Made by a program: the position numbers and the translations under genes. A stretch of 17,767 nucleotides of DNA, taken from a virus (lineage: Duplodnaviria; Heunggongvirae; Uroviricota; Caudoviricetes). Location: the IMG/VR virus record IMGVR_UViG_2690316149_000014, positions 1-17,767 of that record; one strand, given 5' to 3'. Positions 1 to 12,735 of this stretch are shown in pieces (positions within the stretch are counted from its first letter, which is position 1; the number at the start of each line of letters is the position of its first letter). A model generated the notes under the pieces. The model did no database searches. It saw only the letters and a list, made by a program, of their open reading frames with translations, and had not been told where the DNA came from.

Positions 1-1248
1 ATGGCACTGAATATTCCATTCAGAAATGCGTACTATCGTTTTGCATCCAGTTACTCATTTCTCTTTTTTATTTCCTGGTCGCTGTGGTGGTCGTTATACG
101 CTATTTGGCTGAAAGGACATCTAGGGTTGACAGGGACGGAATTAGGTACACTTTATTCGGTCAACCAGTTTACCAGCATTCTATTTATGATGTTCTACGG
201 CATCGTTCAGGATAAACTCGGTCTGAAGAAACCGCTCATCTGGTGTATGAGTTTCATCCTGGTCTTGACCGGACCGTTTATGATTTACGTTTATGAACCG
301 TTACTGCAAAGCAATTTTTCTGTAGGTCTAATTCTGGGGGCGCTATTTTTTGGCTTGGGGTATCTGGCGGGATGCGGTTTGCTTGATAGCTTCACCGAAA
401 AAATGGCGCGAAATTTTCATTTCGAATATGGAACAGCGCGCGCCTGGGGATCTTTTGGCTATGCTATTGGCGCGTTCTTTGCCGGCATATTTTTTAGTAT
501 CAGTCCCCATATCAACTTCTGGTTGGTCTCGCTATTTGGCGCTGTATTTATGATGATCAACATGCGTTTTAAAGATAAGGATCACCAGTGCGTAGCGGCA
601 GATGCGGGAGGGGTAAAAAAAGAGGATTTTATCGCAGTTTTCAAGGATCGAAACTTCTGGGTTTTCGTCATATTTATTGTGGGGACGTGGTCTTTCTATA
701 ACATTTTTGATCAACAACTTTTTCCTGTCTTTTATGCAGGTTTATTCGAATCACACGATGTAGGAACGCGCCTGTATGGTTATCTCAACTCATTCCAGGT
801 GGTACTCGAAGCGCTGTGCATGGCGATTATTCCTTTCTTTGTGAATCGGGTAGGGCCAAAAAATGCATTACTTATCGGAGTTGTGATTATGGCGTTGCGT
901 ATCCTTTCCTGCGCGCTGTTCGTTAACCCCTGGATTATTTCATTAGTGAAGTTGTTACATGCCATTGAGGTTCCACTTTGTGTCATATCCGTCTTCAAAT
1001 ACAGCGTGGCAAACTTTGATAAGCGCCTGTCGTCGACGGTCTTTCTGATTGGTTTTCAAATTGCCAGTTCGCTTGGGATTGTGCTGCTTTCAACGCCGAC
1101 TGGGATACTCTTTGACCACGCAGGCTACCAGACAGTTTTCTTCGCAATTTCGGGTATTGTCTGCCTGATGTTGCTATTTGGCATTTTCTTCTTGAGTAAA
1201 AAACGCGAGCAAATAGTTATGGAAACGCCTGTACCTTCAGCAATATAG
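1..1248 (+). CDS. cscB: Sucrose:H+ symporter, LacY / oligosaccharide:H+ symporter family (CscB-like), 415 aa
   Basis: Full ORF from ATG at base 1 to TAG 1246-1248; polytopic hydrophobic profile typical of 12-TM MFS permeases; recalled similarity to LacY/CscB. Gene symbol rests on recalled identity, not a search. Confidence 0.8.
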   Translation: MALNIPFRNAYYRFASSYSFLFFISWSLWWSLYAIWLKGHLGLTGTELGTLYSVNQFTSILFMMFYGIVQDKLGLKKPLIWCMSFILVLTGPFMIYVYEPLLQSNFSVGLILGALFFGLGYLAGCGLLDSFTEKMARNFHFEYGTARAWGSFGYAIGAFFAGIFFSISPHINFWLVSLFGAVFMMINMRFKDKDHQCVAADAGGVKKEDFIAVFKDRNFWVFVIFIVGTWSFYNIFDQQLFPVFYAGLFESHDVGTRLYGYLNSFQVVLEALCMAIIPFFVNRVGPKNALLIGVVIMALRILSCALFVNPWIISLVKLLHAIEVPLCVISVFKYSVANFDKRLSSTVFLIGFQIASSLGIVLLSTPTGILFDHAGYQTVFFAISGIVCLMLLFGIFFLSKKREQIVMETPVPSAI

Positions 1249-1256
1249 ACGTAAAC

Positions 1257-1301
1257 TTTTTCCGGTTGTTGTCGATAGCTCTATATCCCTCAACCGGAAA
1301 A
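1257..1301. repeat. Perfect 11-bp inverted repeat (TTTTCCGGTTG ... CAACCGGAAAA) with ~23-nt spacer, 9 nt after the cscB stop
   Basis: Seen directly. No T-run follows the stem on either strand, so it is not a canonical intrinsic terminator. Confidence 0.6.
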
Positions 1302-1689
1302 TAATAATAGTAAAATGCTTAGCCCTGCTAATAATCGCCTAATCCAAACGCCTCATTCATGTTCTGGTACAGTCGCTCAAATGTACTTCAGATGCGCGGT
1401 TCGCTGATTTCCAGGACATTGTCGTCATTCAGTGACCTGTCCCGTGTATCACGGTCCTGCGAATTCATCAAGGAATGCATTGCGGAGTGAAGTATCGAGT
1501 CACGCCATATTTCGCTATCAGGATTCTGTGTGATGGTTACATCGCCCGGCTCAGGGCTGTTTAGTCATCAGCGCTTTCTGACAGTGCTGAGATTTCAACC
1601 TGTTGCAGTAAAAATGAGTAGATATAAGGCAAGTGTGCTGCCAAACCCATCTTTTACGGGGTGAAGGTAGATTTCGTTTGAAGGGTATC

Positions 1690-1704
1690 TGGTGTCCCCT
1701 GCAG
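1690..1704 (-). other. Attachment-site core (attR-like): 15-nt copy of the 3' end of tRNA-Arg argW (CTGCAGGGGACACCA on minus strand); chromosome/prophage boundary
   Basis: Plus strand reads TGGTGTCCCCTGCAG, the reverse complement of the recalled argW 3' end. Chromosomal gene (cscB) on the left, phage genes on the right. No intact tRNA is present. Confidence 0.6.
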
Positions 1705-1777
1705 ACATCTACTTGACGAGGCAGGGGATTGATTGGAATGGTGTTTTTTAGATATGAGAAATATTTTACCCGCTATT

Positions 1778-1978
1778 TTACCCATTGGCGCGGCTTAAGA
1801 GCTTATTTTTGAATTCACAATGGTCACGATATAACCATCTTGCTCGCCCGTGGATAACTTTGGCTTTAGGCAGGTCCCCGGACTTAATCCGGTCATAGAT
1901 GAAGGTTTTACCGAAGCCAGTATCGGCCATGATGAATTTCAAATCAACCAGTGAATCAGGCTGTAGTTCGTGTTGCAT
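1778..1978 (-). CDS. torI: Excisionase / recombination directionality factor, AlpA-TorI family, 66 aa
   Basis: 66-aa ORF 73 bp inside the att core; size and basic winged-helix-like sequence (…FGKTFIYDRIKSGDLPKAKVIHGRARW…) match recalled TorI of KplE1. GGAG about 10 nt upstream of the ATG. Confidence 0.7.
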   Translation of the reverse strand: MQHELQPDSLVDLKFIMADTGFGKTFIYDRIKSGDLPKAKVIHGRARWLYRDHCEFKNKLLSRANG

Positions 1979-1997
1979 GAGTGCTATCTCCGAATAG

Positions 1998-2013
1998 GGA
2001 ATCGAACCTGCAA
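1998..2013 (-). other. Second argW-derived block: 16-nt match to the tRNA-Arg T-arm (TTGCAGGTTCGATTCC), contiguous in the tRNA with the 1690-1704 block
   Basis: Plus strand GGAATCGAACCTGCAA is the reverse complement of recalled argW nt 45-60. Lies 20-35 nt upstream of the torI ATG. Confidence 0.55.
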
Positions 2014-10051: not shown

Positions 10052-10351
10052 TCAAATAAGTGGTTTGCTGCCTAATTTCATTTTCTGGCGACCAACACAA
10101 GTCACACCCATTTCACTGCGTGGCTTGCGGTAGTAAATACGATTCTGTTTACTCTCTACTTCTTCTGCCTTCTTGCAGCGAAGGCTTCCGAGTGATGCTG
10201 CTTTATCTGCTCTGACGCAACCAGAGAGCTTTAGCGCAATTTTTCGCGCCAGTCGCTGCTCTTGCATTGCCTGTTCACGTTGAGCCTGTCTGCGTGCTCT
10301 GCGGCGATTTCTGGCGTTATCGTCAGCCAGATATGTAATGACTACTGTCAT
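10052..10351 (-). CDS. N: N-family transcription antiterminator, 99 aa, with arginine-rich motif
   Basis: Track ORF 10052..10423 trimmed to the ATG at 10351 (RBS GGAGG). N-terminal ARM …NARNRRRARRQAQREQ…; first gene downstream of pL/nutL; matching boxA/boxB sites on both sides of the immunity region. Confidence 0.65.
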   Translation of the reverse strand: MTVVITYLADDNARNRRRARRQAQREQAMQEQRLARKIALKLSGCVRADKAASLGSLRCKKAEEVESKQNRIYYRKPRSEMGVTCVGRQKMKLGSKPLI

Positions 10352-10391: not shown

Positions 10392-10511
10392 TTATTTGTT
10401 TTTGCGTTCCCACATCCAGTCATCTACTTCAGACCAGATAGTGAAACCGAAGCAGATGGCGAATGTGGTAACTAAACCACCGAGAATTGGGTTGGTCATG
10501 ATGTCTAACAT
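10392..10511 (-). CDS. Possible small hydrophobic peptide, 39 aa, in the pL leader between nutL and N
   Basis: Below the track cutoff. RBS GAGGAA 6 nt before the ATG; one predicted TM helix. Could be a chance ORF. Confidence 0.25.
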   Translation of the reverse strand: MLDIMTNPILGGLVTTFAICFGFTIWSEVDDWMWERKNK

Positions 10512-10681
10512 TTTCTGTTCCTCAGATGATTAGCTTTGGTGGTGTGGTAGGTGGGAGACCCATTTCGACCCGCTTCGTCCGACTTCAATTCGGCAATAGT
10601 CCCGCAGGCCTCGCCGCTTTACGTGCGACATATTCCCGTCCATGAACCCTTCACCACACCCCAAAGCCAACTACTCTTTGG

Positions 10682-10724
10682 TTCCCGCATTTCGGCGGGA
10701 CAATCCCATCAATGTTAAAGAGCC
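10682..10724 (-). promoter_or_regulatory. nutL-like site: boxA (GGCTCTTTAACA) plus boxB hairpin (UCCCGC-CGAAAU-GCGGGA) in minus-strand transcript sense
   Basis: The boxB RNA is identical to the one at 12381-12398 on the opposite strand; boxA matches the CGCTCTTTA-type consensus. Confidence 0.6.
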
Positions 10725-10770
10725 TGCCAATCTTTTCCGTTTGGCTTCCAGCGTCCTGCTGATGGCTAAA

Positions 10771-10855
10771 GAATACTGTAGGTATTTTATTGTGTAAATA
10801 CCCAAGGTATTTATTTTTGATGAAATAATGATAAACAAATGAATACAAAGGATAT
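10771..10855. promoter_or_regulatory. OL operator cluster / pL region: three sites of form GAATAC-N5-GTATT
   Basis: Sites at ~10771-10786, 10797-10811 and a weaker one at ~10841-10855 share half sites with the OR operators. Confidence 0.55.
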
Positions 10856-10943
10856 TTATTTTTTCCGGTGTCTGCTTGTTCAGTGCTTTTTATGCGGGAT
10901 ATGTGAAGTGGATCCCGATAGCTATTGCTGCCGGGATTATGGG

Positions 10944-11312
10944 TTAGTCAGCGAAGGTTAAGACGAGAATTACCTTAATGATGTCTGCTACAACAGACAC
11001 GGCCATAGATAAACCAAAGACGATCCAAGCCATAGAGATGTCTTCACTACCATCGTATAGGGTTCCGTAATCACTGGTGTAAGGCGTAAATGTCGCGCCT
11101 TGATACAATAGGTATAAGCTTGATCCATAGAGGATAAATGCAGATATCCCTTGTATTGCTATGATCACTAGAATCATGAAACGAGCTGATCTATGCGCCC
11201 AAGCCTGGCTTATTTTTTCTGATAGAGATTTCGCAATAAAAGCATGCGCTAAGCCGTAAATTGTTGAGATTGCCAACATCCCCAAAAAGCTTGCTATAGC
11301 GGTTCCAACCAT
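10944..11312 (-). CDS. Small polytopic membrane protein, 122 aa, ~4 TM helices, in the rex position immediately downstream of cI
   Basis: RBS AAGGGGG; begins 19 nt after the cI stop on the same strand, upstream of OL/pL. No family recognised. Confidence 0.65.
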   Translation of the reverse strand: MVGTAIASFLGMLAISTIYGLAHAFIAKSLSEKISQAWAHRSARFMILVIIAIQGISAFILYGSSLYLLYQGATFTPYTSDYGTLYDGSEDISMAWIVFGLSMAVSVVADIIKVILVLTFAD

Positions 11313-11330: not shown

Positions 11331-12047
11331 TCAAACCAGTCTGAGTTTTGTCTCAATTGCAACGCCTATAATCTTGCAGTTTCCATTGATTGGCACGAGA
11401 GGCCATGCAGGATTAAGTCCCTTGAGGTATTTATTTCCGCCGTCGATTATCAGCTTCTTGAATGTTGCTTCGTTAGAGTCAGAAAGTTTTGCTATGACCA
11501 AGCTGCCGTTGATCGCCTCCCTTCCGGTATCGAAAAGAACGAATGTTCCCTCTGGAATGCTTAACCCAACCGGTGCCGTCATTGAATCACCTTCCACTTT
11601 AAGCCAGAACGCATTACCTTGAATATGCGCGTCAGACTCAAGCCAAACATCTATGTCTTTAATGGTGTATGGTTCGCATGCTTCACACCACGAGCCAGCC
11701 TGGATACTGCTTAACACCGGATACCTCTTTCCTGCTCTGTATTCCCCTGCATACCTTACGTTGGCATCGCTCTTAAGGCTTTCTGCCTGTTCTGCAACCT
11801 TGGCAGCAATTGACTGGCTAAAATCAGCAATTGAGACTTGCAACAATCGTGCAAAACCAGATGCAACCTCAACGTTTAGCGCGTTTCTGCCATTAAGATA
11901 ATGCCCTACCGCTCCTTGGGTGATACCCAGTTCATCAGCGATTGAGTATTGGGTTATTCCCAATTCTTTCTTTTTTGACTCATACAAAGCCTTAAGCCGC
12001 TTAGCGTCTTCGAGCTGTTCTGTCGTCAGTGATTTTTTATTTTCCAT
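11331..12047 (-). CDS. cI: CI-type prophage repressor: N-terminal XRE-family HTH plus C-terminal LexA/S24-like autocleavage domain, 238 aa
   Basis: HTH …QYSIADELGITQGAVGHYLNG…; C-terminal S24 signature …GDSM…/…KL…; no SD before the ATG (leaderless, as for lambda pRM); divergent from cro across an operator region. Confidence 0.9.
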   Translation of the reverse strand: MENKKSLTTEQLEDAKRLKALYESKKKELGITQYSIADELGITQGAVGHYLNGRNALNVEVASGFARLLQVSIADFSQSIAAKVAEQAESLKSDANVRYAGEYRAGKRYPVLSSIQAGSWCEACEPYTIKDIDVWLESDAHIQGNAFWLKVEGDSMTAPVGLSIPEGTFVLFDTGREAINGSLVIAKLSDSNEATFKKLIIDGGNKYLKGLNPAWPLVPINGNCKIIGVAIETKLRLV

Positions 12048-12082
12048 AGCTTAATTCTAATAGCTAAGGTACTTAAACTAAA

Positions 12083-12123
12083 AATACCCTGAGTATTGAT
12101 TGCTTTGAATACCTGTAGTATTC
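12083..12123. promoter_or_regulatory. OR operators with divergent pRM/pR promoters
   Basis: Two sites, AATACCCTGAGTATT (~12083-12097) and GAATACCTGTAGTATTC (~12107-12123), with centres ~25 bp apart. Candidate pR -35 TTGATT / -10 TATTCT; candidate pRM -10 TAGAAT placed for a leaderless cI start. Confidence 0.6.
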
Positions 12124-12153
12124 TTTGTTCATGGTTAATAACGGAGAGTGCAT

Positions 12154-12348
12154 ATGATTCGAATGACACTTGCCGATTACGCCAAAATCCATGGACAGGC
12201 TAAAGCAGCCAGTGACTTTGGTGTAATCCAGTGCGCTATCAGCAAGGCCATTCTGGCAGGCCGTAACATCATGGTTACGGTAAAGCCTGATGGCAGTGTG
12301 ATTGGAGAGGAAGTTCGTCCTTTCCCAAGCAACAAGAAAAACAAATAG
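12154..12348 (+). CDS. cro: Cro repressor, 64 aa from ATG 12154 (track ORF begins at GTG 12148)
   Basis: Recalled similarity to lambda Cro throughout; RBS GGAGAG upstream. Confidence 0.85.
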
Positions 12349-12398: not shown

Positions 12399-12456
12399 AT
12401 ACAACGCGCATAAGTTGATGCGCATAACTTCTTATTAGTTAAGGAAATACTTACAT

Positions 12457-12735
12457 ATGCAACTTACAAGTACTCGCAAGAAAGCGAATGCAATTACAAG
12501 CAACATCCTGAATCGAATTGCTGTACGTGGTCAGCGAAAGGTTGCCGACGCGTTAGGGATTAATGAATCGCAAATTTCGCGATGGAAAGACAGCTTCATC
12601 CCAAAAATGGGAATGCTTCTGGCTGTTCTTGAATGGGGTGTTGAAGACGAGGAGTTGGCGGAACTGGCTAAGAAAGTAGCCAGAATGCTGACAAAAGAAA
12701 AAGCCCCGAAGAACGGCGAATTCTTCGAGGCCTGA
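12457..12735 (+). CDS. cII: CII transcriptional activator, 92 aa
   Basis: Recalled similarity to lambda CII (…SQISRWK…IPK..MLLAVLEWGV…); position right after cro/nutR. Confidence 0.85.
   Translation: MQLTSTRKKANAITSNILNRIAVRGQRKVADALGINESQISRWKDSFIPKMGMLLAVLEWGVEDEELAELAKKVARMLTKEKAPKNGEFFEA

What the first reader, a model, noticed from the sequence alone, without database searches (positions are those of the whole stretch)
12048..12147. OR operator pair and a leaderless cI start
Seen: two palindromic sites with consensus (G)AATAC-N5-GTATT(C) lie between the divergent cI and cro starts. The cI ATG has no Shine-Dalgarno and has a TAGAAT hexamer at -12 to -7. Established: lambda cI is translated from a leaderless pRM transcript. 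Inference: the operator half site AATAC defines this phage's immunity specificity.
Basis: partly seen in the sequence, partly recalled or inferred. Interest (0 to 1): 0.4.

Follow-up and report, generated by a model that had tools for sequence, protein, structure and literature searches.

The report
Known HK620-type phage immunity operators
This is the lysis/lysogeny control region of a common E. coli prophage: repressor-binding sites lie between the repressor gene cI and its antagonist cro, and cI probably starts transcription at its own start codon as in phage lambda; it is base-for-base identical to the region already annotated in phage HK620, so it is ordinary.

Summary
AATAC-N5-GTATT occurs exactly at 12083-12097 and 12108-12122, between cI (minus strand, ATG at 12047) and cro (ATG at 12154). 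The window holds 4 exact copies against 0.01 expected. TAGAAT lies at -12..-7 of the cI ATG, and there is no Shine-Dalgarno sequence.

It is not new. Positions 12040-12160 are 100% identical to phage HK620, and cI is 237/238 identical. The HK620 GenBank record already annotates these sites as OR2 and OR1. It also annotates a degenerate OR3 (12058-12074), pR, and OL1/OL2 at the other two exact copies.

cI and Cro are lambda orthologues. The promoter/operator register matches lambda PRM base for base: TTTAGT-17-TAGAAT-TAAGCT-ATG against TAGATA-17-TAGATT-TAACGT-ATG.

In 25 relatives from about 14 genera, the three operators, the A and T of the -10 hexamer, an ATG start and the lack of an SD are conserved. 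The spacers vary.

The leaderless start and the repressor binding remain inferences, because no transcript or footprint data exist. The half-site marks a broad repressor family, not this phage alone.

Novelty: already known. Interest: low.

The parts
11331..12047 (-). cI repressor gene, 238 aa (HTH_3 plus Peptidase_S24). It keeps a lambda-like N-terminal arm, a QAG cleavage site and the GDSM/FKK catalytic motifs.
   Evidence: ORF list. Pfam. 237/238 identical to HK620 cI. 43% identical to lambda cI. Best solved relative is lambda repressor 3bdn/1lmb.
12047..12047 (-). Predicted PRM transcription start, the A of the cI AUG (leaderless mRNA).
   Evidence: Inferred. It is the 7th nt after the -10 hexamer, in the same register as lambda PRM. 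The geometry is conserved in relatives. The first 18 nt of the mRNA are predicted unpaired.
12054..12059 (-). PRM -10 hexamer TAGAAT.
   Evidence: A(-11) and T(-7) are invariant in the 20-sequence alignment.
12077..12082 (-). Putative weak PRM -35 hexamer TTTAGT, 17-bp spacer, abutting OR2.
   Evidence: Ungapped register with lambda TAGATA. Only 3 of 6 match the consensus. Inferred.
12058..12074 (.). OR3, TAATAGCTAAGGTACTT. It is degenerate (2 core mismatches), centred at -19 from the cI A, and overlaps the first 2 nt of the PRM -10.
   Evidence: Annotated OR3 in HK620. PWM trained on relatives gives 12.8 bits, 5th best in the window, with 0.13 expected per shuffle. A site at -18..-20 is present in all 25 relatives.
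12082..12098 (.). OR2, AAATACCCTGAGTATTG, centred at -43 from the cI A. It overlaps the PR -35.
12107..12123 (.). OR1, GAATACCTGTAGTATTC. It overlaps the PR spacer and -10.
12096..12131 (+). PR: -35 TTGATT (12096-12101), 17-bp spacer, -10 TATTCT (12119-12124), probable start at A 12131.
   Evidence: The HK620 pR feature maps exactly. It matches 8 of 12 consensus positions, below the scan tool's threshold.
12154..12348 (+). cro, 64 aa, lambda-type Cro with recognition helix I-Q-C-A-I-S-K. SD GGAG at 12143-12146.
   Evidence: Pfam Cro 3.6e-26. 63% identical to lambda Cro. PDB 6cro/5cro.
10771..10787 (.). OL1, GAATACTGTAGGTATTT. It overlaps the PL -10 (TATTCT, 10775..10770, minus strand).
10796..10812 (.). 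OL2, AAATACCCAAGGTATTT. It overlaps the PL -35 (TTTACA, 10798..10793, minus strand).
10841..10857 (.). Candidate OL3, GAATACAAAGGATATTT (1 core mismatch), 45 bp from OL2.
   Evidence: 0.43 sites with at most 1 mismatch expected per window. PWM 10.5 bits, 6th best in the window. The same 45-bp spacing occurs in L009 and L028. HK620 annotates OL3 elsewhere.

Best explanation
This is the right operator (OR) of an HK620-immunity lambdoid prophage. It is a lambda-type bistable switch with a different DNA specificity.

Shown by sequence: three 17-bp pseudo-palindromes of consensus nAATACY-N3-RGTATTn lie between divergent cI and cro. These are OR1 (12107-12123), OR2 (12082-12098) and a degenerate OR3 (12058-12074).

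Inferred by homology with lambda:
- In a lysogen, cI dimers fill OR1 and OR2 and occlude PR (TTGATT-17-TATTCT).
- The dimer at OR2, centred at -43, abuts the weak PRM -35 and activates PRM.
- At high concentration cI fills OR3, which overlaps the PRM -10, and shuts off its own synthesis. This is probably helped by the matching OL cluster 1.3 kb away.
- PRM (TAGAAT at -12..-7) starts transcription at the A of the cI AUG, giving a leaderless mRNA that is translated without a Shine-Dalgarno sequence.
- Cro, a lambda-Cro orthologue, binds the same sites during lytic growth.
- The changed recognition-helix residues of both proteins account for the changed half-site (AATAC instead of lambda's ATCAC) and so for heteroimmunity to lambda.
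For: - Motif count: 4 exact copies against 0.01 expected. All four lie in the OR and OL positions with 25-bp spacing.
- Identity to HK620: the intergenic region is 100% identical. The HK620 record annotates OR1-3, pR, OL1-2 and pL at these bases.
- Protein families: cI has HTH_3 plus Peptidase_S24, and Cro belongs to the Pfam Cro family. They are 43% and 63% identical to the lambda proteins.
- Distances from the cI A to OR3/OR2/OR1 starts are +11/+35/+60, against +11/+34/+58 in lambda. The promoter register is identical: -35, 17 nt, -10, 6 nt, ATG.
- Lambda cI mRNA from pRM is leaderless (PMC10491246).
- In 25 relatives (Enterobacterales and Microbulbifer, 43-76% cI identity) with helix (T/S)QG(A/G)(V/I)(G/A)HY, OR1 lies at -65..-69 in all. 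OR2 lies at -41..-44 in 23. OR3 lies at -18..-20 in all, and is in most loci the most degenerate of the three sites.
- A TAnnnT hexamer lies 5-7 nt before an ATG in all of them. Their only SD-like 4-mers lie at -18/-19, at -4/-5 or inside that hexamer, none at functional spacing. Most of their cro genes have a GGAG-type SD.
- Alignment A1: half-site bases, A-11, T-7 and the ATG are invariant. The N5 centres, the inter-operator spacers and the 6 nt before the ATG are not.
- Two relatives with a different helix (L045, L047) carry different palindromes.
- A PWM trained only on relatives ranks OL2, OR2, OL1, OR1, OR3 and OL3 as the six best sites in the window.
- Anti-SD pairing is -0.6 kcal/mol for cI against -7.0 for cro.
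- Cro helix residues Q-H1, A-H3 and K-H6 predict A2, A5 and C6 under the published Cro 'evolutionary code'. The half-site nAATAC has exactly these.
Against: - I found no transcript 5' end, footprint or immunity test for this region in the tools or papers available. The HK620 operator annotations give no experimental basis, and the HK620 record annotates no pRM.
- The PRM -35 is poor (3 of 6). Neither PR nor PRM passes the generic promoter scan; only PL does.
- OR2 is centred at -43, against -42 in lambda.
- The OR3 match (2 mismatches) is not significant by count alone: 14 sites with at most 2 mismatches against 7.7 expected.
- The first two bases of the -10 hexamer lie inside OR3, so part of their conservation could be operator-driven.
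Confidence: 0.85

Rival explanations
1. The operators are real but cI is not leaderless. On this view, maintenance transcription starts further upstream or comes from the cII-dependent PRE, and the SD-less AUG is used internally, for example through S1 binding to an A/U-rich leader.
For: There are no TSS data. The PRM -35 is weak and the promoter scan did not call PRM. PRE transcripts (HK620 pRE maps to 12441-12480) must in any case translate this same SD-less AUG from within a long leader.
Against: The -10 A and T are invariant at a fixed 5-7 nt from the ATG in all relatives, while the intervening bases vary. The register with lambda PRM is exact. All 26 start codons are ATG. The 5' end of the mRNA is predicted unstructured.
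Confidence: 0.1
2. The palindromes bind only Cro, or another factor. The repressor would then recognise something else, so AATAC would not set immunity.
For: No binding data exist. Microbulbifer relatives keep the sites with a quite different Cro.
Against: That same Microbulbifer case argues for cI. The sites track the cI helix (T/S)QGAVGHY even where Cro is replaced, and they are replaced by other palindromes in the two full-length relatives examined where the cI helix differs. The sites sit over PR, PL and PRM exactly as in lambda.
Confidence: 0.03
3. The repeats are chance matches in an AT-rich intergenic region.
For: The region is AT-rich. Matches with 2 mismatches are common.
Against: There are 4 exact copies against 0.01 expected, and no shuffle reaches 4. 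The sites are conserved across about 14 genera.
Confidence: 0.01

Closest known systems
Immunity region of coliphage HK620 (GenBank AF335538; Clark et al. 2001 J Mol Biol 311:657). The same region is found in mEpX2, HK630, HK140, phi296/phi367 and some Stx2c phages.
   Same: The cI-cro intergenic region is 100% identical, cI is 237/238 identical, and every annotated HK620 feature (OR1-3, pR, OL1-2, pL, nutL/R, pRE) maps exactly onto the window.
   Different: Nothing differs in the operator region. Outside it, the window has about 230 extra bp between nutL and N. The HK620 record has no pRM feature, and its OL3 lies on a sequence that does not resemble the motif.
Phage lambda OR/PRM/PR switch with leaderless cI mRNA
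   Same: The cI and Cro proteins are orthologous. There are three 17-bp operators. OR3 starts 11 nt from the cI A in both. The PRM layout is identical (-35, 17 nt, -10, 6 nt, ATG). OR3 overlaps the -10 by 2 bp. OR2 abuts the -35. OR1/OR2 lie over PR. A second OL cluster exists.
   Different: The half-site is nAATACY instead of TATCACC. Operator spacings are 24 and 25 bp instead of 23 and 24, so OR2 is centred at -43 instead of -42. cI helix 3 is QGAVGHYLNGRN instead of QSGVGALFNGIN, and the Cro helix is QCAISK instead of QSAINK. A small membrane protein (hkaS) replaces rexAB. The OL3 candidate is 45 bp from OL2 instead of 20. Binding and the TSS are not experimentally shown.
Cro 'evolutionary code' (Hall, Cordes et al.; summarised in PMC6649833)
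   Same: Gln-H1, Ala-H3 and Lys-H6 pair with A2, A5 and C6 of the half-site, exactly as in lambda.
   Different: Positions 3 and 4 of the half-site differ (A-T instead of T-C), along with helix residues H2 (Cys/Thr instead of Ser) and H5 (Ser instead of Asn). These positions are not covered by the code. Proteus relatives have Gln at H6 yet keep C6.

Membership tests
HK620-type immunity region | Repressor essentially identical to HK620 cI | tested here: met
   237/238 identical.
HK620-type immunity region | Same OR and OL operator sequences | tested here: met
   12040-12160 is 100% identical. The OR1-3 and OL1-2 strings are found exactly in the window.
HK620-type immunity region | Homoimmunity with HK620 in a plating test | not testable with these tools
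   Needs a superinfection assay.
Lambda-type tripartite OR switch | Divergent cI (HTH plus S24 autopeptidase) and Cro genes | tested here: met
   Pfam HTH_3, Peptidase_S24 and Cro. Orthology to the lambda proteins.
Lambda-type tripartite OR switch | Three 17-bp pseudo-palindromic operators about 24 bp apart in the intergenic region | tested here: met
   Centres at 12066, 12090 and 12115. Conserved in relatives.
Lambda-type tripartite OR switch | OR1/OR2 overlap PR, OR3 overlaps PRM, and OR2 abuts the PRM -35 | tested here: met
   Sequence positions. The promoters themselves are predicted, not mapped.
Lambda-type tripartite OR switch | Matching OL operator cluster over PL | tested here: met
   Two exact sites 25 bp apart over TTTACA-17-TATTCT.
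Lambda-type tripartite OR switch | Repressor and Cro bind these sites; cooperative binding and OL-OR looping | not testable with these tools
   Needs footprinting, EMSA or reporter assays.
Leaderless mRNA of the lambda PRM-cI type | The -10 hexamer ends 6-7 nt before the A of the start codon | tested here: met
   TAGAAT-TAAGCT-ATG. The distance is 5-7 nt in all 25 relatives.
Leaderless mRNA of the lambda PRM-cI type | AUG start codon and no Shine-Dalgarno sequence | tested here: met
   ATG in 26 of 26 sequences. Anti-SD duplex energy -0.6 kcal/mol.
Leaderless mRNA of the lambda PRM-cI type | Transcript 5' end mapped at the A of the AUG | not testable with these tools
   No transcript data are available. 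Needs 5' RACE or dRNA-seq of a lysogen.

The most novel reading that the evidence does not exclude
The (T/S)QGAVGHY-helix, AATACY-half-site repressors form a lambda-orthologous switch family. This family has kept the PRM/OR3/OR2 geometry and the leaderless cI start to within 1 bp, from E. coli to Microbulbifer (43% cI identity). Meanwhile Cro was replaced by an unrelated HTH protein, and the third OL site moved between 21, 30 and 45 bp from OL2. If this has not been described, it would be a ready-made natural data set on what constrains leaderless repressor expression and cI/Cro co-recognition.
Probability: 0.4. Interest if true: 0.25.

Novelty: already known. Interest (0 to 1): 0.1.

Why it matters
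It matters little beyond correct annotation. The region identifies the prophage's immunity type as HK620/mEpX2-like, which is present in 146 of 5426 complete E. coli genomes and in some Stx2c phages. That predicts which phages a lysogen will exclude. The comparison across genera adds sequence-level support that a leaderless cI start is a conserved, selected feature of lambda-type switches. It also suggests a small correction to the OL3 annotation of HK620.

Tried and rejected
- The generic promoter scan called only PL. PR and PRM match 8 of 12 consensus positions, below its threshold, so the scan gives them no independent support.
- The count of sites with at most 2 mismatches cannot by itself support OR3. 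A PWM and conserved position were used instead.
- The HK620-annotated OL3 position (10818-10834) was tested and rejected as a motif match (PWM -22.6 bits).
- I could not read Clark et al. 2001 or Hall et al. 2011; neither is held. I therefore cannot say whether those authors discussed a leaderless cI or listed HK620 Cro.
- Literature searches for experimental work on HK620 operators found none.
- PMC10742460 (lambda CI on related operators) does not mention this motif.
- Rfam found nothing in the window.
- Folding the first 50 nt of the cI mRNA shows an unpaired 5' end, but it is not different from shuffles (z = 0.74), so this is only weak support.

Full report
**Observation**

The window encodes a 238-aa ORF on the minus strand (11331-12047) and a divergent 64-aa ORF on the plus strand (12154-12348). 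The plus-strand ORF is preceded by GGAG at 12143-12146.

The exact pattern AATAC-N5-GTATT occurs four times in the 17.8-kb window against 0.01 expected, and no shuffle out of 200 reaches four. The other two copies are at 10772 and 10797. They have the same 25-bp spacing and lie downstream of cI.

On the minus strand the sequence before the cI start reads TAGAAT-TAAGCT-ATG, so the hexamer occupies -12..-7. An in-frame TAA two codons upstream, with no start codon after it, makes this ATG the most upstream possible start, and HK620 annotates the same start. Pairing of the 16S anti-SD sequence with the 22 nt upstream is -0.6 kcal/mol for cI.

**What it is**

The 2.3 kb around the finding matches phage HK620 at 98.4% identity and mEpX2 at 99.0%. 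It also matches HK630, HK140, phi296/phi367 and two Stx2c-converting phages. It covers at least 80% of the query in 127 complete E. coli genomes. The 141-bp OR fragment alone is present in 146 of 5426 genomes, in 139 of them at 99% identity or more.

Positions 12040-12160 are 100% identical to HK620 and mEpX2, and cI is 237/238 identical to HK620 cI. The HK620 GenBank record already carries these features, and each maps exactly onto the window:
- OR3 at 12058-12074
- OR2 at 12082-12098
- OR1 at 12107-12123
- pR at 12096-12131
- OL1 at 10771-10787
- OL2 at 10796-10812
- also pL, tIMM, nutL, nutR and pRE

**Relation to lambda**

cI carries HTH_3 and Peptidase_S24 domains, and the divergent gene belongs to the Pfam Cro family. 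They are 43% and 63% identical to lambda cI and Cro. Their closest solved structures are the lambda proteins.

Using the lambda record, the distances from the A of the cI ATG to the starts of OR3/OR2/OR1 are 11/34/58 nt in lambda and 11/35/60 nt here.

Anchored at the ATG without gaps, lambda reads TAGATA-17-TAGATT-TAACGT-ATG and the window reads TTTAGT-17-TAGAAT-TAAGCT-ATG. The -10 hexamer, its 2-bp overlap with OR3, and the abutment of OR2 to the -35 are thus in the same register. The lambda cI transcript from pRM is leaderless (PMC10491246).

PR (TTGATT-17-TATTCT) and PL (TTTACA-17-TATTCT) both have their -10 inside O1 and their -35 overlapping O2.

**Comparative test**

A scan of one genome per species with cI returned 80 loci. 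Twenty-five of them have a full-length relative (43-76% identity) that keeps the recognition helix (T/S)QG(A/G)(V/I)(G/A)HY. They come from Lelliottia, Siccibacter, Enterobacter, Tatumella, Lonsdalea, Serratia, Pantoea, Providencia, Proteus, Yersinia, Pectobacterium, Scandinavium, Kluyvera and Microbulbifer.
- All 25 have a near-perfect site centred at -65..-69.
- 23 have one centred at -41..-44.
- All have a weaker site (1-3 mismatches) centred at -18..-20 from the ATG.

Sites with at most one mismatch otherwise occur almost only in a second cluster 0.8-3.1 kb downstream of cI. Two relatives with a different N-terminal helix (L045, L047) carry different palindromes.

Every locus has a TAnnnT hexamer 5-7 nt before an ATG start. 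The few SD-like 4-mers upstream of cI lie at -18/-19, at -4/-5 or inside the hexamer, not at functional spacing. Most of the neighbouring cro genes have a GGAG-type SD.

In the 20-sequence alignment the invariant columns are the half-site bases, the A(-11) and T(-7) of the hexamer, and the ATG. The operator centres, the inter-operator spacers and the nucleotides between the hexamer and the ATG vary. T(-7) lies outside OR3, so its invariance cannot be credited to the operator.

A PWM trained only on relatives ranks the six best sites in the window as OL2, OR2, OL1, OR1, OR3 (12.8 bits, 0.13 expected per shuffled window) and 10841-10857. It also refines the half-site to nAATACY.

**Mechanism**

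*Shown by sequence:* the layout described above.

*Inferred by orthology with lambda:*
- cI dimers at OR1 and OR2 occlude PR.
- The OR2-bound dimer (centre -43) activates the weak PRM.
- OR3 occupancy, possibly helped by OL, represses PRM.
- PRM starts at the A of the AUG and gives a leaderless mRNA.
- Cro uses the same sites during lytic growth.

The Cro helix (I-Q-C-A-I-S-K) has Gln-H1, Ala-H3 and Lys-H6. In the published Cro 'evolutionary code' these pair with A2, A5 and C6 (PMC6649833), and nAATAC has exactly these bases. The half-site differs from lambda at positions 3 and 4. The helices differ at H2 and H5 in Cro and at the Ser45/Gly46 equivalents in cI, which plausibly explains the new specificity.

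cI keeps the QAG cleavage site and the Ser/Lys motifs, so SOS induction is expected.

**Limits**

I found no transcript 5' end, footprint or immunity test. The HK620 operator features give no experimental basis, and that record annotates no pRM. The PRM -35 matches 3 of 6 positions, and the generic promoter scan calls neither PR nor PRM. I could not read Clark et al. 2001 or Hall et al. 2011. The statement that AATAC 'defines this phage's immunity' is too narrow, because the half-site is shared by a broad repressor family. Whether those phages are homoimmune is untested.

**Verdict**

However, this is a textbook lambda-type switch in a region already annotated in HK620. It is rated already known, with low interest.

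Noticed in passing
window 10818-10857: The OL3 annotated in the HK620 record maps to 10818-10834 (TGATGAAATAATGATAA) and does not resemble the operator motif (PWM -22.6 bits). A much better site, GAATACAAAGGATATTT, lies at 10841-10857 inside the annotated tIMM, 45 bp from OL2. The same 45-bp spacing occurs in Tatumella L009 and Kluyvera L028; other relatives have a third site at 21 or 30 bp.
   Followed up: yes
window 1-2000: The window starts with a LacY-family permease (1-1248). In a matching E. coli genome this is the last gene of a csc sucrose-utilisation cluster. It is followed directly by a DUF4942 fragment and a torI-like excisionase gene (about 1778-1978, minus strand). No integrase lies between them, so this prophage end may be truncated.
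   Followed up: partly
window 10392-10650: The window has about 230 bp more than HK620 between nutL (10683-10724) and the N start (internal ATG near 10351; the N-terminal 64 aa are 98% identical to HK620 N). The extra DNA holds a 39-aa hydrophobic ORF (10392-10511, minus strand, MLDIMTNPILGGLVTTFAICFGFTIWSEVDDWMWERKNK). Its right part (about 10527-10668) is shared with the N-leader regions of many lambdoid and Stx phages. Its function is unknown.
   Followed up: partly
window 10944-11312 (minus strand): hkaS is a 122-aa strongly hydrophobic protein of unknown function (phrog_6534, no Pfam match). It sits directly downstream of cI in the position of lambda rexAB and has a strong SD. It is presumably co-transcribed with cI in lysogens and is a candidate exclusion or conversion gene.
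   Followed up: partly
L062, L064, L065 (Microbulbifer): These loci keep the cI recognition helix, the three AATAC-type operators and the ATG-proximal hexamer. Their divergent 'cro' is a different HTH protein of about 90 aa (ITQGMVSAW), not a lambda-type Cro.
   Followed up: no
L018, L019 (Yersinia), about -51 from the cI ATG: The OR2 position carries a different palindrome (GCTACTACAAGTAGG) instead of an AATAC site, although OR1 and OR3 are of the AATAC type.
   Followed up: no
L016, L017 (Proteus): Cro has Gln at recognition-helix position H6 (HQTAISQAL), yet the operators keep C at half-site position 6. This is contrary to the published Lys-H6/C6 versus Gln-H6/G6 rule.
   Followed up: no
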